NCBI GenBank assembly: GCA_964646685.1
Contig: CAZYFW010000016.1
Coordinates: 1 to 17,367 of the forward strand
DNA length: 17,367 nucleotides
Source of the DNA: an uncultured Thermoplasmatales archaeon
Lineage (GTDB): Archaea > Thermoplasmatota > E2 > DHVEG-1
Direction: 5' to 3'
Under the pieces are notes generated by a model. The model was not told the DNA's origin. It ran no database searches and worked only from the letters and a program-made list of their open reading frames with translations. Shown here piece after piece: positions 4,947-17,367 of the stretch (within the stretch, counting starts at the first letter, position 1; each line of letters begins with the position of its first letter). A program made the position numbers and the translations under genes.

Positions 4947-5167
4947 AGTTGTATCCTATCTCTTCCTACATGCAAAAGGATGTACCGTAATCTTTAAGTA
5001 ACAGGCAAAAAGACGCTCCAAAGGGAGTATATAAACTCCAGATCACAGTATTTTGTGTCCAAGAGTAAGAACTTGGATGGGAAGTTTGAAAATATGAAAA
5101 AGAAAATGTATCCTCATGCCACCGATGATGCTAAGTCACAGAAAGAACAGGTGGAGGAGGTGTGATA

Positions 5168-5743
5168 ATGAGAAAGGCAATAACAATATTGGCAGTTAGT
5201 ATATTGATGGGAACATTATTGATCGGTGCTGTGGTCGGCCAAAAAGATTCTAATATGTTCAATTCACAGGTACAAAAAGGGGTACAGTTAACATATCCCG
5301 ATATTGCCAGCAAGGCTCTTACCTACAGAGGAGAATTGGTAAAATTTAATTTGAATGTAGAAAACTTTGGAGGCTATGAGATCAAAGTTAATGTTGATAA
5401 AGAAGTTTCAGGAGATACTGGCTATTTCGTTACTTGGTTGGACAAAAAAGGATTTACAATTGACCCTTGGGAGAGCAGTAGTAAATTCAATCTATATGTT
5501 TTAGCCAGGTTTAAACCAGAACCAGGCAGGGTAGAAGAAATTGATATAACTGTTACTATTAGGAGCGGAATCTACTTTGACAGTATGACATTTCATGTAG
5601 AATTGGCAGATGACGATGTTGATGACGACTTGCATAATTCTTGTCCAAGTGGTGACTTATCACCGACTCCCGAACTTTGTTCAGCAGATTTTCATGTAAG
5701 CTCAAACGTTGCGACCGTATCTGCTCAAAAGGCATTTAGTTAA
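5168..5743 (+). CDS. secreted hypothetical protein (signal peptide, beta-rich Ig/CARDB-like body, acidic Cys-containing tail)
   Basis: Signal-like N-terminus MRKAITILAVSILMGTLLIGAVVG. GGAGGAGG at 5153..5160 lies 7 nt before ATG 5168; the ORF track opens at GTG 5162. Alternating beta-strand pattern (ELVKFNLNVENFGGYEIKVNV). Tail DDDVDDD...C...C. No family assigned with certainty. Confidence 0.6.
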   Translation: MRKAITILAVSILMGTLLIGAVVGQKDSNMFNSQVQKGVQLTYPDIASKALTYRGELVKFNLNVENFGGYEIKVNVDKEVSGDTGYFVTWLDKKGFTIDPWESSSKFNLYVLARFKPEPGRVEEIDITVTIRSGIYFDSMTFHVELADDDVDDDLHNSCPSGDLSPTPELCSADFHVSSNVATVSAQKAFS

Positions 5744-5880: not shown

Positions 5881-7149
5881 ATGAATAAACTAAAAACACT
5901 AGCAATACTACTCGCACTGGTCATTGTTTTCACCGGTGTCTACGCAGGTGCCAACTATAGCGGACTAACAAACCATGACCTAATTAAGGCTCAATCGACC
6001 CATAAGTTAAGTAATTGTTCCATCGCAGGATCAATATGCGAACTGTCATTTGAGCTTTATAAAGGACTGTTAAAAAATGGTGATGAAAACATTTTCTTTT
6101 CGCCCTATAGTATTTTCATAGCTCTTGCAATGACTTATGAAGGTGCAAGTGGGCAAACAGCTGAAGAAATGATGGAAGTATTAAATATTCCACAAAATAA
6201 TGAAACTGTTTTAGAATCGGTAAAGACGCTTCATGGTTATCTAAATAAGAACGATAAATTTACAATAAGTACAGCTAATGCTCTTTGGATAAGAGATAAT
6301 CTTGATCTCTTAATTAATTATTCAAACATCATTCAGGAATATTACGGAGGTCATGCTTCCAAAATCGATGTTTCTAAACCTGAAGAAACCGCACAGATGA
6401 TAAATGACTGGGTAGAGGAACAAACAAAGGGAAAAATTACTGACTAAATTAAAAAAGAAGATATCATTGGTTTAACTGCATTAATTCTTACTAATGCCAT
6501 TTACTTCAAAGCCGACTGGAAAGTTCAATTTAATCCAGATGAGACAAAGGAACAAGAGTTTGAATTGGAAAGTGGTGAGAAAATCATGGTTCCTACAATG
6601 TGTCTTGAAGGTTCTGAAGAATTGTTTTATTACACGGAAAATGAGGAATTACAGATACTTGAATTGCCTTATGCAGGTGAAGAGCTTTCTATGCTTGTTT
6701 TGCTTCCGAAGCAAAAAAGTATTGCAGAAATTGTAGAATCATTATCATTTGGGTCTTTGTCAGAGTTGAAAGAATCAATGTATGAGACAAACATTAACAT
6801 TCGCCTTCCTAAGTTTAAACTTGAAACAGAATATGAATTAAACGAACCATTGAAGCGGATGGGCATGCCAAGTGCGTTTACCCGATATGATTTCACTGGT
6901 ATGTGTTATTGGTCTGGCAATCCAGATGCAATAGATCCCCTTAAAATTGATAAAGTGATTCATAAAGCGTTTATCGAGGTAAATGAGGAAGGAACAGAAG
7001 CTGCTGCTGCAACAGCTGTAATCATGGTTGACTATTGTATGCATAGTTCTTCGGAGTTTTTTGCTGATCATCCATTCCTGTTTATAATTCAGCATATAGA
7101 AACAGGTACCGTTCTTTTCATGGGAAGCGTCGGTAACCCCTTATCTTAA
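5881..7149 (+). pseudogene. serpin (serine protease inhibitor) interrupted by a single in-frame TAA at 6445..6447
   Basis: ORFs 5881..6447 and 6565..7149 are in the same frame. The 117 nt between them are open and encode conserved serpin sequence ([24 protein letters not shown]). Other serpin hallmarks: FFSPYSIFIALAMTYEGASGQT, hinge/[26 protein letters not shown]-terminal hydrophobic anchor MNKLKTLAILLALVIVFTGVYAGA. Read through, it would be about 421 aa. Confidence 0.85.
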
Positions 7150-8454: not shown

Positions 8455-8529
8455 TGCTCCCGACGGGATTCGAACCCGTGTAGCTAGCTCGAAAGGCTAG
8501 AATGATTGGCCGGACTACACCACGGGAGC
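8455..8529 (-). tRNA. tRNA-Glu (anticodon UUC)
   Basis: Reverse complement folds as GCTCCCG/CGGGAGC acceptor, anticodon arm CTAGC-CTTTCGA-GCTAG, T arm ACGGG-TTCGAAT-CCCGT, discriminator A. No encoded CCA. Confidence 0.9.
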
Positions 8530-8538
8530 AATTTTTAG

Positions 8539-8609
8539 CAGCCCTGAGCGGATTCGAACCGCTGACGCTAGCTCCAAAGGCTAGAATGTTGCCACTACAC
8601 CACAGGGCT
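8539..8609 (-). tRNA. tRNA-Gln (anticodon UUG), A1-U72, discriminator G73
   Basis: Reverse complement: AGCCCTG TG GTGT-AGTGGCA-ACAT T CTAGC-CTTTGGA-GCTAG CGTC AGCGG-TTCGAAT-CCGCT CAGGGCT G. Lies 9 nt upstream of tRNA-Glu on the same strand. Confidence 0.9.
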
Positions 8610-8720
8610 ATTTACTATAGTATGGCGCAGTGGATTGTAATTTTGATATTTATTATTTTGGTTATCTCAAAATGAGAAATCGATTAATACGCTTTCGCCG
8701 CTATAAATTGGATAAATTAG

Positions 8721-8792
8721 TAGCCCCGAGTGGATTCGAACCACTGTCGCTAACTCTAAGGTCAACATGATTGTCCACTACAATACGGGGCT
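8721..8792 (-). tRNA. aberrant Gln-type tRNA-like gene (6-nt anticodon loop CUUAGA; possible pseudogene or non-canonical decoder)
   Basis: Reverse complement: AGCCCCG TA TTGT-AGTGGACAA-TCAT G TTGAC-CTTAGA-GTTAG CGAC AGTGG-TTCGAAT-CCACT CGGGGCT A. The acceptor stem and positions 8-9 are identical to tRNA-Gln(CUG). The T arm is perfect. The loop between the best 5-bp anticodon stem (8750..8754 / 8761..8765) has only 6 nt (8755..8760). Confidence 0.55.
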
Positions 8793-8847
8793 ATTGTTAT
8801 ATTTACGTTTAATGGTGATAAATTGGTTATTTAATTGACCAATCAAA

Positions 8848-10536
8848 TTATTTCTTGTTTTGTTGCATCTGCTGAACTTTTGCCCAAGTGTCACGTAATA
8901 CTACAGTTCTGTTGATAATGAGATTCTTCTCAGTCTTATCTGGATCTATGCAGAAATATCCTTGTCGTTCGAACTGGAATCTATCAAATGGTTTTAATTT
9001 ACCAACAGTAGGTTCAACCTTGCATGATTTTAATATCCCGAGCGAATCAGGATTAAGAAAATCCTTAAAATCGGCATTTTTTTGCCCGGCAGGATTTTTT
9101 ACAGTAAATAATCTATCATAAAGTCTAATTTCTGCATCGATTGAATGAGCCGCTGAAACCCAATGAAGTGTTGATTTTACTTTCCGCCCATCAGCGGCAG
9201 TGCCTCCACTGGTTGCAGGATCAATTGTACATCTAAGCTCAACTACTTTGCCATTATTTTTAACTGCTTTTTGGCAGGTTACTAAATAAGCATACCTGAA
9301 TCTTACTTCTTGACCAGGTGTCAAACGATAGAATTTCTTTGGGGGATCCTCCATAAAATCCTCTTGTTCAATAAATAATACTTTTGAAAATGGAATTTTT
9401 CGAGTTCCAGCCTTTGGATCTTCAGGATTATTTATCGCCTCCATCTCTTCGACTTCATCTTCGGGATAATTTTCAATTACTACTCTAAGTGGATTAAGAA
9501 CGCCCATGAACCGTGGACAAGTTTTATTTAAATCATCTCTGACACAATGTTCAAGGAACTCAAAGTCAACCATGCTGTTTACTTTTGCAACACCAATTCG
9601 CTTGCAGAAATTTCTGATAGAATCAGGCGAGTAACCTCGTCTATGCATTCCACTGATAGTTGGTAATCTAGGATCATTCCATCCATTTACATATTTGCCT
9701 TCTACCAATTCTAAAAGCATACGTTTGCTCATTATTGTATATGTTAGATTCAGACGAGCGAATTCTATCTGTTGTGGATGATAGACCTCAATAGCATCAA
9801 GGAACCAATCATAGAGAGGGCGATGGTTCTCAAATTCAAGAGTACATATTGAATGAGTAATTCTTTCGATGGAGTCTTCCAGACCGTGTGCCCAGTCGTA
9901 CATGGGATAAATACACCATTTATCTCCGGTATTATGATGGGGGGCATGTAATACTCTATACAATACTGGATCACGCATATTGAGATTCGGATGGCTCATG
10001 TCAATCTTGGCCCGAAGTACCTTCCCACCGTCAACAAACTCACCTGCTTTCATCCGCTCAAAAAGATCGAGGTTTTCTTTCACCGAACGATCACGATAAG
10101 GGCTATTTTTGCCGGGTTTTGTTAGAGTGCCGCGTTGCTCGCTTATTTCTTTAGCACTTAAGTCATCGACATATGCTTTACCGGCTTTTATTAACTGAAC
10201 TGCATATTCGTACATCTGATCAAAATAATCTGAGGCAAAATAAAGCCGGTCTCCCCAGTCAAATCCGAGCCATTTTACATCTTCAATAATTGATTTGACA
10301 TATTCTTTCTCTTCTTTTGCAGGATTGGTATCGTCAAAACGAAGGTTACATAGGCCCTTGTATTCTTCAGCTATGCCAAAGTTGAGACATATGGACTTAG
10401 CATGACCGATATGTAAGTACCCATTTGGCTCGGGTGGAAATCTTGTGTGGACGCGACCATCATATTTATTTGTCTTCAAGTCCTCATCAATTATGTCTCG
10501 AATAAAATCCCTTTTTTCATCAATAGCTGAATCCAT
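8848..10536 (-). CDS. glnS: glutaminyl-tRNA synthetase, bacterial type
   Basis: Collinear by eye with E. coli GlnS: [36 protein letters not shown] (HIGH), [68 protein letters not shown] (KMSKS equivalent), LRDTWAKV C-terminus. 562 aa with no eukaryote-type N-terminal extension. Confidence 0.95.
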
Positions 10537-10573: not shown

Positions 10574-10645
10574 CAGCCCCGCCCGGATTTGAACCGGGGC
10601 CTAGAGATCCAGAGTCTCTTATGTTAACCACTACACTACGGGGCT
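10574..10645 (-). tRNA. tRNA-Gln (anticodon CUG), A1-U72, discriminator G73
   Basis: Reverse complement: AGCCCCG TA GTGT-AGTGGTTA-ACAT A AGAGA-CTCTGGA-TCTCT AGGC CCCGG-TTCAAAT-CCGGG CGGGGCT G. Its 3' end lies 37 nt upstream of the glnS start codon on the same strand. Confidence 0.9.
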
Positions 10646-13392: not shown

Positions 13393-14091
13393 ATGGACAA
13401 AGAAAAAGATCATTTCAGAGCGCCTGTTGCTGATACATTCAGAAGAAAATCACCATTTGACCAATTACTTGAACACATGGGGAAAGTCAGAGAATGTATC
13501 GATATTTTAGGAAGCGGGTTGGTTGATTATTATAAAGGAAATTACAAAAATTTTTCAGATTTGGCTAAGAAAGTATCTGAAATTGAACATGAAGCAGATC
13601 TTATTAAAAGTAATCTTAGAAACCATCTTCCAAATTCACTTTTTATGCCTGTTGATAAGGGAAAATTTATGTGGGCTCTCAGAGAACAAGATGCAATTCT
13701 TGATCATGCAGAAAATCTTGCAACAATGCTTGATATGAGGCATACAAAAATTCCAAAAGAACTACAGAAAGTTTTCATTGAACATTGTAAACTAGTTATG
13801 AAGACAGTAAAGGCCATGGAGGATGCAGTTGAAAACATTAGAGATTTAGTTGAAACAAGTTTTGTAAAACGAGAACGAGAACAAACAAAGCAGTTTATCT
13901 ATAAAGTTCATGAGTTCGAATGGAAAGCAGATAAAGCGAAATATGAAGCGACTAAAGGAATCTATAAATTTGAAAAGAAGCTAGATCCAATGGACGTATA
14001 TCATCTCCTTAAGATTGCAGATTGGGTTGATGACATCGCAGATCATGCAGAAAATGTGGCCGATTGGCTTAGAGCCATGATTGCAAAATAG
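13393..14091 (+). CDS. DUF47 / PhoU-like Pit accessory protein (TIGR00153 family), copy 1
   Basis: Helical PhoU-related pattern (EIEHEADLIKSNLRNHL, FMPVDKGKFMWALREQDAILDHAEN, IADWVDDIADHAEN). The canonical position immediately 3' of a PiT gene is a well-known pairing. ATG 13393 is preferred over the ORF-track GTG 13381. Confidence 0.85.
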   Translation: MDKEKDHFRAPVADTFRRKSPFDQLLEHMGKVRECIDILGSGLVDYYKGNYKNFSDLAKKVSEIEHEADLIKSNLRNHLPNSLFMPVDKGKFMWALREQDAILDHAENLATMLDMRHTKIPKELQKVFIEHCKLVMKTVKAMEDAVENIRDLVETSFVKREREQTKQFIYKVHEFEWKADKAKYEATKGIYKFEKKLDPMDVYHLLKIADWVDDIADHAENVADWLRAMIAK

Positions 14092-14238
14092 TTATTATTT
14101 ATTATCCGTGCCAACTAAATGATTGATAACATTTTCTGATATGTCCGCAGAATATTCTCCTATTCTTCTTATACTCTCTACGACATAACCTAGTGAAATC
14201 ACAAATTCACCTTTTTGTTTAAAGGCAAGCTTATTTAT
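13400..14238 (+). repeat. copy 1 of a perfect direct repeat of at least 839 bp (offset 3129 bp)
   Basis: Compared by eye with 16529..17367, with no mismatch found. The ORF-track proteins are identical from EKDHFRAP to MIAK. The nested ORFs 13523..13738 and 16652..16867 are identical. The 147 nt after the stop codon are identical up to the window edge. Confidence 0.9.
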
Positions 14239-16524: not shown

Positions 16525-17220
16525 ATGGAAGAAAAAGATCATTTCAGAGCGCCTGTTGCTGATACATTCAGAAGAAAATCACCATTTGACCAATTACTTG
16601 AACACATGGGGAAAGTCAGAGAATGTATCGATATTTTAGGAAGCGGGTTGGTTGATTATTATAAAGGAAATTACAAAAATTTTTCAGATTTGGCTAAGAA
16701 AGTATCTGAAATTGAACATGAAGCAGATCTTATTAAAAGTAATCTTAGAAACCATCTTCCAAATTCACTTTTTATGCCTGTTGATAAGGGAAAATTTATG
16801 TGGGCTCTCAGAGAACAAGATGCAATTCTTGATCATGCAGAAAATCTTGCAACAATGCTTGATATGAGGCATACAAAAATTCCAAAAGAACTACAGAAAG
16901 TTTTCATTGAACATTGTAAACTAGTTATGAAGACAGTAAAGGCCATGGAGGATGCAGTTGAAAACATTAGAGATTTAGTTGAAACAAGTTTTGTAAAACG
17001 AGAACGAGAACAAACAAAGCAGTTTATCTATAAAGTTCATGAGTTCGAATGGAAAGCAGATAAAGCGAAATATGAAGCGACTAAAGGAATCTATAAATTT
17101 GAAAAGAAGCTAGATCCAATGGACGTATATCATCTCCTTAAGATTGCAGATTGGGTTGATGACATCGCAGATCATGCAGAAAATGTGGCCGATTGGCTTA
17201 GAGCCATGATTGCAAAATAG
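16525..17220 (+). CDS. DUF47 / PhoU-like Pit accessory protein, copy 2 (identical to copy 1 after the first few codons)
   Basis: Same protein as 13393..14091 from EKDHF onward. GGAGGT at 16511..16516 lies 8 nt before ATG 16525; the ORF track opens at ATG 16519, only 2 nt after the SD. Confidence 0.85.
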   Translation: MEEKDHFRAPVADTFRRKSPFDQLLEHMGKVRECIDILGSGLVDYYKGNYKNFSDLAKKVSEIEHEADLIKSNLRNHLPNSLFMPVDKGKFMWALREQDAILDHAENLATMLDMRHTKIPKELQKVFIEHCKLVMKTVKAMEDAVENIRDLVETSFVKREREQTKQFIYKVHEFEWKADKAKYEATKGIYKFEKKLDPMDVYHLLKIADWVDDIADHAENVADWLRAMIAK

Positions 17221-17367
17221 TTATTATTTATTATCCGTGCCAACTAAATGATTGATAACATTTTCTGATATGTCCGCAGAATATTCTCCTATTCTTCTTA
17301 TACTCTCTACGACATAACCTAGTGAAATCACAAATTCACCTTTTTGTTTAAAGGCAAGCTTATTTAT
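16529..17367 (+). repeat. copy 2 of the perfect direct repeat (truncated by the window end)
   Basis: See copy 1. Identity runs to the last base of the window, so the true length is unknown. Confidence 0.9.
17224..17367 (-). CDS. phoU: 3' end (last 47 codons + stop) of a second AbrB-PhoU-type regulator gene, partial at window edge
   Basis: 17224..17367 is base-for-base identical to 14095..14238, the 3' end of the phoU-like gene. It would encode ...FKQKGEFVISLGYVVESIRRIGEYSADISENVINHLVGTDNK. Confidence 0.7.
   Translation of the reverse strand: MNKLAFKQKGEFVISLGYVVESIRRIGEYSADISENVINHLVGTDNK

What the first reader, a model, noticed from the sequence alone, without database searches (positions are those of the whole stretch)
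8721..8792. Gln-type tRNA paralogue with a 6-nt anticodon loop directly downstream of glnS
This 71-nt element has a perfect acceptor stem identical to tRNA-Gln(CUG) (AGCCCCG/CGGGGCT, plus TA at positions 8-9). It also has G18G19 and a flawless T arm. Its best anticodon arm is TTGAC-CUUAGA-GTTAG, a 6-nt loop. The stem is extendable to 6 bp (G-C), leaving a 3-nt variable loop; alternatively it can be drawn as a 5-bp stem with an 8-nt loop. Relative to the tRNA-Gln loop CUUUGGA, the sequence is one T short of CUUUAGA. That loop would carry anticodon UUA, an ochre-reading Gln tRNA. Read strictly with U33, the anticodon would be UAG (Leu codons). It is therefore either a decaying relic of an older tRNA-Gln (A73, T10) or a non-canonical decoder. 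Only 55 nt without an oligo-T tract separate it from the glnS stop, so it may be co-transcribed with glnS.
Basis: seen in the sequence. Interest (0 to 1): 0.65.

Follow-up and report, generated by a model that had tools for sequence, protein, structure and literature searches.

The report
Anticodon-dead relic of archaeal tRNA-Gln
This is a real tRNA-shaped gene: an old archaeal-type glutamine tRNA that lost one base of its anticodon loop after its host acquired a bacterial glutaminyl-tRNA synthetase with matching tRNAs, so it is a non-decoding leftover rather than a stop-codon reader, although the rest of the molecule is still conserved.

Summary
On the minus strand, 8792→8721 encodes a 72-nt cloverleaf with a 6-nt anticodon loop, CUUAGA (ARAGORN "tRNA-???"; Rfam tRNA 41.3 bits).

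It belongs to a conserved paralogue family (U10, A73) lying between glnS and the canonical tRNA-Gln(UUG). The host is a Thermoplasmata-related archaeal clade carrying a bacterial-type GlnRS. Most relatives have a normal 7-nt loop, CUUUGGA (anticodon UUG).

The window's subclade (seven assemblies from different samples) shares a one-U deletion, and the loop then varies: CUUGGA, CUUAGA, CUUAGG, CUUAUA. A sequencing miscall is therefore excluded.

An ochre or other non-canonical decoder is not supported:
- The "anticodon" differs between sister lineages.
- TAA ends 11 of 15 genes.
- The one in-frame TAA, in a serpin gene, sits at a Leu-conserved position.

Elsewhere in the clade the paralogue is decayed or deleted, so it is dispensable. 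All canonical tRNA-Gln copies next to glnS have G10 and G73 (GlnRS identity elements). All paralogues have U10 and A73, the archaeal type.

One result remains unexplained. Within the 6-nt subclade the tRNA body is as conserved as the working tRNAs (1/66 variable sites against 32/167 in spacers). It is therefore not a freely drifting pseudogene.

The parts
8721..8792 (-). tRNA-Gln-derived paralogue (U10, U13·U22, A73) with a 6-nt anticodon loop. This is the feature under study.
   Evidence: ARAGORN tRNA-???. Rfam tRNA 41.3 bits. Member of a covarying family of 16 distinct sequences.
8755..8760 (-). The 6-nt anticodon loop CUUAGA. The ancestral loop was CUUUGGA: one U was deleted, then G36 changed to A.
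   Evidence: Relatives have CUUUGGA (7 nt). Subclade members have CUUGGA, CUUAGG or CUUAUA. 3 of 6 loop sites vary, against 1 of 66 in the body.
8817..8822 (-). TATA-like box TTTATC at -30 to -25 from the mature 5' end. This is a candidate own promoter; the role is inferred, not tested.
   Evidence: Invariant in the four complete subclade lineages while neighbouring spacer bases vary. One base shorter in L176. Similar TTTAWA-type boxes sit at the same distance in other family members.
8848..10536 (-). glnS, a bacterial-type glutaminyl-tRNA synthetase (562 aa) in an archaeal genome.
   Evidence: Pfam domains tRNA-synt_1c, _C and _C2. E = 1e-211 to E. coli GlnRS structures. 62-72% identity to many bacterial GlnRS. 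80-91% identity to proteins of 'Thermoplasmatales archaeon' MAGs.
10574..10645 (-). Canonical tRNA-Gln(CUG) with G10 and G73, upstream of glnS.
   Evidence: ARAGORN. Rfam 67.5 bits. G10/G73 in every relative examined.
8539..8609 (-). Canonical tRNA-Gln(UUG) with G10 and G73. It makes the paralogue's decoding role redundant.
   Evidence: ARAGORN. Rfam 62.9 bits. G10/G73 in every relative examined.
8455..8529 (-). tRNA-Glu(UUC), the last member of the conserved tRNA-Gln(CUG) / glnS / paralogue / tRNA-Gln(UUG) / tRNA-Glu cluster.
   Evidence: ARAGORN. Rfam 58.8 bits.

Best explanation
The element descends from the archaeal-type tRNA-Gln(UUG), which has A1-U72 and A73 and in this clade also U10 and U13·U22.

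An ancestor of this Thermoplasmata-related clade acquired a bacterial-type GlnRS. The tRNA-Gln genes flanking glnS carry G10 and G73, two of the nucleotides that bacterial GlnRS uses for tRNA identity. The A73/U10 copy stayed between glnS and tRNA-Gln(UUG). This origin and order of events is inferred.

The paralogue is dispensable in this clade. In different lineages it is intact, mutated in stems and the T loop, shortened in the anticodon loop, or deleted.

In the window's subclade one U of the loop was lost (CUUUGGA to CUUGGA), giving a 6-nt loop. The 3' half of the loop then drifted, to CUUAGA in this window. With no U33-NNN-R37 geometry, no conserved anticodon and no GlnRS identity nucleotides, it most likely no longer decodes and is probably not charged by GlnRS. 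Archaeal GluRS also recognises the anticodon, so charging by that enzyme is doubtful too. These last points are inferred.

The gene keeps a promoter-like box and a body as conserved as its working neighbours. So it is probably still transcribed, folded and processed as a tRNA-like RNA. Whatever selection remains acts on the tRNA body and not on the anticodon. What that residual role is remains unknown.
For: - Same gene, same position, 7-nt CUUUGGA loop in more distant relatives (GlnRS 78-82% identical).
- The subclade with 6-nt loops is monophyletic on glnS. It contains the pure deletion form CUUGGA in L130 and L176.
- The family is a genuine tRNA. All 6 anticodon-stem pairs and 4 of 5 T-stem pairs show double (compensatory) changes, 88.6% of cells are paired, and 0 of 500 shuffles reach the observed value.
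- Dispensability: deleted in L175 and L177/L178; stem or T-loop lesions in L083, L098, L105 and L179; loop 2 nt short in L103/L124.
- All 22 distinct canonical tRNA-Gln sequences have G10+G73. All 17 distinct paralogue sequences have U10+A73.
- G73, G10, U35 and G36 belong to the E. coli GlnRS identity set (PMC1865053). A73 is the archaeal tRNA-Gln discriminator (PMC9499178).
- GlnRS and archaeal ND-GluRS both read the anticodon (PMC2978374).
- Rfam scores: 41-44 bits for loop-shortened copies, 53-61 for intact paralogues.
- Constraint on the body: 1/66 variable sites against 32/167 in flanking spacers (Fisher p = 1.3e-4) and 33/99 at glnS third codon positions. The neighbouring tRNAs show 1/71 and 2/75.
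Against: - No expression, CCA-addition or charging data exist.
- Body conservation argues against simple loss of function. It means something still selects for the molecule, and I cannot name it.
- The selection test rests on only 4-5 lineages and on counts of variable sites, not on a tree-based rate model.
- That the U10/A73 form is ancestral, rather than a derived duplicate, is inferred from A73 being the archaeal norm and from one archaeal contig family (L092/L107) where it lies away from any glnS.
- Whether these genomes still encode GatDE and a non-discriminating GluRS could not be checked.
Confidence: 0.62

Rival explanations
1. Plain neutral pseudogene. The loop deletion killed the gene, nothing selects on it any more, and the conserved body reflects chance or too little divergence time.
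For: The paralogue is decayed or deleted in several sister lineages. The loop is hypervariable. In L176 the TATA-like box has lost a base, TTTATC to TTTTC.
Against: At the spacer rate (19% variable sites) about 12-13 of 66 body sites should vary, but only 1 does (Fisher p = 1.3e-4). That one change is U27-G43 to C27-G43, which keeps the pair. Copies that are truly decaying (L083, L179) do accumulate stem-breaking changes. All five 6-nt lineages share the deletion, so it predates their divergence.
Confidence: 0.2
2. Processing or punctuation element. A tRNA-shaped structure is kept because RNase P and tRNase Z cleavage at it defines the 3' end of glnS mRNA, which has no oligo-T terminator, or helps mature the downstream tRNA-Gln/tRNA-Glu precursor. 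This is a special case of the retained, non-decoding reading.
For: There are only 55 nt and no T5 tract between the glnS stop and the tRNA. Selection acts on the body but not on the anticodon loop, which is what a processing substrate would need.
Against: A TATA-like box immediately upstream suggests independent transcription. The downstream tRNA-Gln(UUG) has its own strongly conserved upstream region. Lineages L175 and L177/L178 deleted the element cleanly while keeping glnS and the downstream tRNA cluster present. The D arm and anticodon stem are also invariant, more than RNase P or Z should require.
Confidence: 0.1
3. Non-canonical decoder: an ochre (UUA) suppressor inserting Gln, a UAG-anticodon Leu reader, or a frameshifting tRNA that uses the 6-nt loop (or an 8-nt loop if C31-G39 opens).
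For: CUUA is shared by three of the five subclade lineages. The window holds one in-frame TAA in an otherwise intact serpin gene. The body is under selection.
Against: Loops differ among sister lineages (UUGG, UUAG, UUAU), so no codon specificity is conserved. TAA is the stop of 11 of 15 genes. The serpin TAA aligns with Leu in 9 of 10 homologues (Ile in one), whereas the tRNA has Gln-type ancestry and lacks the long variable arm typical of Leu tRNAs. It lacks the G73, G10 and G36 that GlnRS needs. Genes on related contigs have normal lengths.
Confidence: 0.04
4. Sequencing or assembly artefact: a homopolymer miscall of TTT as TT in a normal tRNA-Gln(UUG).
For: The deleted base lies in a run of U.
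Against: Seven independent assemblies from ENA and JGI samples all have 6-nt loops, with further substitutions that a miscall cannot produce.
Confidence: 0.01

Closest known systems
Archaeal tRNA-Gln, the substrate of non-discriminating GluRS plus GatDE (transamidation route)
   Same: A1-U72 first pair, A73 discriminator and an archaeal-type body. Relatives of the element carry the UUG anticodon in a CUUUGGA loop (PMC9499178).
   Different: The window copy has a 6-nt loop without a UUG anticodon. The whole family has U10 and U·U mismatches at 10:25 and 13:22. It coexists with a GlnRS and G73 tRNA-Gln genes, a situation the 2022 review says is unknown in archaea.
Bacterial tRNA-Gln / GlnRS identity system (E. 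coli set: G73, U1-A72, G2-C71, G3-C70, G10, U35, G36 and others)
   Same: The neighbouring canonical tRNA-Gln genes carry G73, G10, G2-C71, U35 and G36, and sit next to a bacterial-type GlnRS (PMC1865053).
   Different: The element itself has A73, U10 and no G36, so it fails the identity set. All the tRNAs here are archaeal in origin (A1-U72, C3-G70) and were not co-transferred from bacteria.
Pseudo-tRNAs and non-proteinogenic tRNAs kept for non-decoding roles, for example Bacillus cereus tRNA-Other and the Staphylococcus cell-wall tRNA-Gly species (from my own knowledge, not checked here)
   Same: A tRNA-shaped gene with a crippled decoding apparatus that is nevertheless conserved.
   Different: No function, expression or charging is known for this element. 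Those examples keep a 7-nt anticodon loop.
Frameshift-suppressor tRNAs with altered anticodon-loop size, for example 8-nt-loop sufD and sufG (a tRNA-Gln) (from my own knowledge)
   Same: The anticodon-loop length was changed by a single-nucleotide indel in a tRNA.
   Different: Those carry insertions with a defined extended anticodon and a decoding phenotype. Here there is a deletion, and the loop sequence is not conserved between sister lineages.
Ordinary tRNA pseudogenes
   Same: An inactivating lesion in an essential element, a reduced covariance-model score, and loss or decay of the orthologue in sister lineages.
   Different: The body shows no relaxation of constraint (1/66 against 32/167), and a promoter-like box is retained.

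Membership tests
tRNA (Rfam RF00005) | Cloverleaf scoring above the family's gathering threshold | tested here: met
   41.3 bits against a gathering score of 29, E = 6.9e-6, full-length model match. Family-wide compensatory changes in the anticodon and T stems.
tRNA (Rfam RF00005) | 7-nt anticodon loop with U33 and purine 37 | tested here: not met
   The loop is 6 nt, CUUAGA. cmscan shows one deleted loop position and ARAGORN reports a 2-nt anticodon. The same holds in seven related assemblies.
tRNA (Rfam RF00005) | G18G19 and a T loop UUCGAAU closed by a G53-C61 stem | tested here: met
   Read directly from the sequence. Invariant across the family.
Archaeal-type tRNA-Gln | A1-U72 and discriminator A73 | tested here: met
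   Sequence. All 17 distinct paralogue sequences end in A73. Archaeal norm as stated in PMC9499178.
Archaeal-type tRNA-Gln | Anticodon YUG | tested here: not met
   The window loop CUUAGA contains no UUG. Orthologues outside the subclade have CUUUGGA.
Substrate of bacterial-type GlnRS | G73, G10, U35 and G36 (E. coli identity set) | tested here: not met
   A73, U10 and no G36. Identity set taken from PMC1865053. Actual charging is not testable here.
Ochre suppressor tRNA | UUA anticodon presented in a 7-nt loop, with in-frame TAA codons tolerated in genes | tested here: not met
   The loop is 6 nt, and loops differ between sister lineages. TAA ends 11 of 15 genes. There is a single in-frame TAA, at a Leu-conserved column.
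Neutral tRNA pseudogene | Relaxed constraint over the whole gene | tested here: not met
   Body 1/66 variable sites against spacers 32/167, p = 1.3e-4. Only the loop is free, at 3/6.
tRNA-Pyl-like | 6-bp or longer anticodon stem, 3-nt variable loop, small D loop, CUA anticodon, G73 | tested here: not met
   A 6-bp stem (G26-C44) and a 3-nt variable loop can be drawn. But there is no CUA anticodon, the discriminator is A73, and the G18G19 and T loop are canonical. Features taken from PMC9499178.
Expressed, processed tRNA | Transcript with mature ends, CCA added, aminoacylated | not testable with these tools
   No RNA data. Only a conserved TATA-like box at -30 to -25.

The most novel reading that the evidence does not exclude
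The element is a tRNA-shaped RNA kept by selection for a role that needs the tRNA body but not an anticodon. It would be a by-product of a natural switch, in an archaeal lineage, from the transamidation route (ND-GluRS plus GatDE acting on A73 tRNA-Gln) to direct charging by a horizontally acquired bacterial GlnRS acting on G10/G73 tRNA-Gln. The gene cluster would then preserve both identity sets of that switch side by side.
Probability: 0.3. Interest if true: 0.7.

Novelty: new variant of a known kind. Interest (0 to 1): 0.5.

Why it matters
Taken alone, a tRNA with a broken anticodon loop is a small curiosity. Its value lies in the context.

A 2022 review (PMC9499178) states that no archaeon is known to encode GlnRS. 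It attributes this to archaeal tRNA-Gln identity: A73, against G73 in bacteria. This locus shows an archaeal clade that does carry a bacterial-type GlnRS. The enzyme is flanked by archaeal-derived tRNA-Gln genes with G10/G73, and the A73 tRNA-Gln sits beside them in every stage from intact to deleted.

That makes the idea of tRNA identity as a barrier to synthetase transfer directly testable, using sequences that exist in nature. The 6-nt-loop copy adds a second question: why is a tRNA body conserved when its anticodon is not?

Tried and rejected
- **Ochre or Leu decoder.** Rejected. Loops differ between sister lineages, TAA is the main stop codon, and the serpin in-frame TAA sits at a Leu-conserved column.
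- **Homopolymer miscall.** Rejected by seven concordant assemblies.
- **tRNA-Pyl-like reading** (6-bp anticodon stem, 3-nt variable loop, alternative 5-nt D loop from UUGU/ACAA). Rejected: no CUA anticodon, A73, canonical T loop. D-arm column 19 varies without covariation.
It did show that the enzyme is of bacterial type.
- **Exact-protein look-up of the window's GlnRS** found nothing.
- **MFE folding of the single sequence** gives a non-cloverleaf structure. It was not informative.
- **Literature searches** for an archaeal GlnRS, for GlnRS in Thermoplasmatota or Thermoprofundales, and for 6-nt anticodon loops returned nothing relevant.
- **GatDE and ND-GluRS in the related complete genomes** could not be checked. 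No query sequence or genome-wide access was available.
- **Diversifying selection on the loop** is not established: 3/6 against 32/167 variable sites, p = 0.098.

Full report
**1. What is there**

On the minus strand, 8792→8721 reads AGCCCCGUAUUGUAGUGGACAAUCAUGUUGACCUUAGAGUUAGCGACAGUGGUUCGAAUCCACUCGGGGCUA. ARAGORN reports a tRNA of unknown type with a 2-nt anticodon. Rfam's tRNA model matches end to end at 41.3 bits (gathering score 29, E = 6.9e-6), with one anticodon-loop position deleted and two U·U mismatches in the D stem. The three neighbouring tRNAs score 58.8-67.5 bits.

**2. Context**

The gene order on the minus strand is tRNA-Gln(CUG) 10645-10574, glnS 10536-8848, the odd tRNA, tRNA-Gln(UUG) 8609-8539, tRNA-Glu(UUC) 8529-8455.

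The window is archaeal:
- It has a NAC-domain protein and an HVO_0163-type HTH regulator.
- The tRNA-Gln genes have an A1-U72 first pair.
- The closest GlnRS homologues (80-91% identical) include proteins that NCBI assigns to Thermoplasmatales or Thermoplasmata MAGs.

The GlnRS itself is of bacterial type:
- E about 1e-211 to E. coli GlnRS structures.
- 62-72% identity to GlnRS of many bacterial phyla.
- 562 aa, with no extra domain.

A 2022 review states that no archaeon is known to encode GlnRS. It links this to A73 in archaeal tRNA-Gln against G73 in bacterial tRNA-Gln (PMC9499178). My literature searches found no description of an archaeal GlnRS.

**3. Relatives of the element**

I collected 30 archaeal loci in two ways. 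One was a scan of metagenome contigs with the D-arm signature GTNTTGTAGNGGNCAATCAT. The other was look-ups of contigs encoding close GlnRS homologues. The cluster tRNA-Gln(CUG) / glnS / paralogue / tRNA-Gln(UUG) / tRNA-Glu is conserved.

| State of the paralogue | Loci | GlnRS identity to window |
|---|---|---|
| Normal tRNA-Gln(UUG), 7-nt loop CUUUGGA | L097, L142, L144, L146, L154, L155, L164, L165, L169 (also L160, only a partial glnS on the contig) | 78-82% (L165: no glnS on the contig) |
| 6-nt loop CUUAGA | window | 100% |
| 6-nt loop CUUAGG | L081, L095, L172, L173 | 90% |
| 6-nt loop CUUAUA | L082 | 91% |
| 6-nt loop CUUGGA (pure one-U deletion) | L130, L176 | 89-90% |
| Deleted | L175, L177/L178 | 83-84% |
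| Stem mismatches or A58C in the T loop | L083, L098, L179 | 71-84% |
| Loop AUUUUUU plus T-stem mismatches | L105 | 67% (partial match) |
| Loop 2 nt short | L103/L124 | 80% |

Intact copies score 53-61 bits with Rfam. The 6-nt subclade is monophyletic on glnS. Its members come from different ENA and JGI samples, which excludes a miscall. Rfam scores of the shortened-loop copies are 41-44 bits. The range of states outside the subclade shows that the paralogue is dispensable in this clade.

**4. The family is a real tRNA with its own identity marks**

On an alignment of 16 distinct sequences, all 6 anticodon-stem pairs (including 26:44) and 4 of 5 T-stem pairs show changes on both sides. Of all cells, 88.6% are paired, and 0 of 500 shuffles reach the observed values. 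U10·U25 and U13·U22 are invariant mismatches.

The split between the two kinds of tRNA-Gln is absolute in the data. All 22 distinct canonical tRNA-Gln sequences beside glnS have G10 and G73. All 17 distinct paralogue sequences have U10 and A73. G73, G10, U35 and G36 belong to the E. coli GlnRS identity set (PMC1865053).

Inference: the G10/G73 genes are the GlnRS substrates. The U10/A73 gene is the older archaeal-type tRNA-Gln, presumably once served by ND-GluRS and GatDE. Two further observations fit this:
- On the archaeal contigs L092/L107 (tRNA-splicing endonuclease, DUF2070, HisRS) the U10/A73 tRNA-Gln lies with no glnS nearby.
- L118 carries a CUG-anticodon version of the U10/A73 type.

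**5. Is it a decoder?**

This is unlikely, for four reasons:
- The loop differs between sister lineages. On the glnS tree, loop position 4 changed at least twice.
- TAA ends 11 of the 15 genes in the window, so an efficient ochre suppressor would be harmful.
- The window has one in-frame TAA, in a serpin gene at 6445-6447 (GKITD*IKK). In ten homologues, three of them 78-81% identical, that column is Leu nine times and Ile once. This fits a single-base change from a Leu codon such as TTA (a mutation or an error), not Gln insertion.
- Both GlnRS and archaeal ND-GluRS read anticodon bases (PMC2978374), so charging of the 6-nt form is doubtful. This last point is inferred.

**6. Is it a plain pseudogene?**

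Not quite. I counted variable sites among window, L081, L082, L130 and L173 (for tRNA-Glu without L082, whose contig ends before that gene):

| Segment | Variable sites |
|---|---|
| tRNA body | 1/66 (U27-G43 to C27-G43, pair kept) |
| Anticodon loop | 3/6 |
| The two flanking spacers | 32/167 |
| glnS third codon positions (last 300 nt) | 33/99 |
| Neighbouring tRNA-Gln(UUG) | 1/71 |
| Neighbouring tRNA-Glu | 2/75 |

Fisher tests give p = 1.3e-4 for body against spacers, 1.3e-3 for loop against body, and 0.098 for loop against spacers.

All subclade members share the deletion. The body has therefore stayed constrained after decoding was presumably lost, while the loop evolves at least as fast as spacer DNA.

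A TATA-like TTTATC box at -30 to -25 (window 8817-8822) is invariant in the four complete lineages. It is one base shorter in L176. Comparable boxes occur at the same distance upstream of other family members.

Limits of this test: few lineages, site counts rather than a rate model, and no RNA data.

**7. Verdict**

The element is a genuine member of the archaeal-type (A73/U10) tRNA-Gln paralogue family whose anticodon loop is dead. It was made redundant by the horizontally acquired GlnRS and its G10/G73 tRNAs.

- The 'decoder' alternative and the 'miscall' caveat are not supported.
- The conserved body and promoter-like box suggest it is still made as a tRNA-like RNA under some residual, anticodon-independent constraint. 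A role as a processing signal for glnS or the tRNA cluster is one possibility, and it is weakened by clean deletions in sister lineages.

The wider locus is probably the more valuable lead: an archaeal clade with a bacterial GlnRS and two tRNA-Gln identity classes side by side.

Noticed in passing
window 8848-10536 with 10574-10645 and 8539-8609: An archaeal genome carries a bacterial-type GlnRS (62-72% identical to diverse bacterial GlnRS, E about 1e-211 to E. coli structures). It is flanked by archaeal-derived tRNA-Gln genes that all have G10 and G73, two GlnRS identity nucleotides. A 2022 review says no archaeal GlnRS is known, and I found no paper describing one.
   Followed up: partly
window 5881-7149 (+), stop codon at 6445-6447: A serpin gene is interrupted by a single in-frame TAA (GKITD*IKK) and is otherwise intact and in frame. 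The column is Leu in 9 of 10 homologues and Ile in the other, so a single-base change from a Leu codon such as TTA is the likeliest origin (mutation, very recent pseudogene, or read error). It is unrelated to the odd tRNA as far as the evidence goes.
   Followed up: yes
window 13400-14238 and 16529-17367: An exact 839-nt direct repeat covers a PhoU-like / DUF47-type gene downstream of each of two PitA (PHO4) paralogues. The second copy runs to the very end of the window, which looks like an assembly break inside a duplicated region.
   Followed up: partly
L144 2063-2173 and L165 488-598: At the position where other loci have tRNA-Glu, Rfam finds a 111-nt tRNA match (45.4 bits). This is probably an intron-containing tRNA. 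ARAGORN did not call it.
   Followed up: no
L177 4776-4822 compared with L178 4775-4847: Two contigs encode the identical GlnRS but differ downstream. L177 has an internally deleted tRNA-Gln(UUG), AGCCC joined directly to GAGCTAGCG, while L178 has the intact gene. This is either strain variation or an assembly artefact.
   Followed up: no
L175 890-963 and 2790-2862; L179 4464-4537: In these lineages the canonical tRNA-Gln genes start with G1 (a G1·U72 wobble pair) instead of A1-U72, a further change at the first base pair that GatDE and GlnRS both inspect. L175 has deleted the paralogue and L179 carries a decayed copy.
   Followed up: no
window 8610-8720 (minus strand), spacer upstream of tRNA-Gln(UUG): The 50 nt upstream of tRNA-Gln(UUG), GATAACCAAAATAATAAATATCAAAATTACAATCCACTGCGCCATACTATA, are almost invariant across the subclade and recognisable even in L175. 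This is far more conserved than the rest of the spacer and is presumably the promoter and leader of the tRNA-Gln/tRNA-Glu unit.
   Followed up: no
window 5162-5743 (+): A 193-aa predicted secreted or membrane-anchored protein with no Pfam match lies just upstream of the serpin.
   Followed up: no
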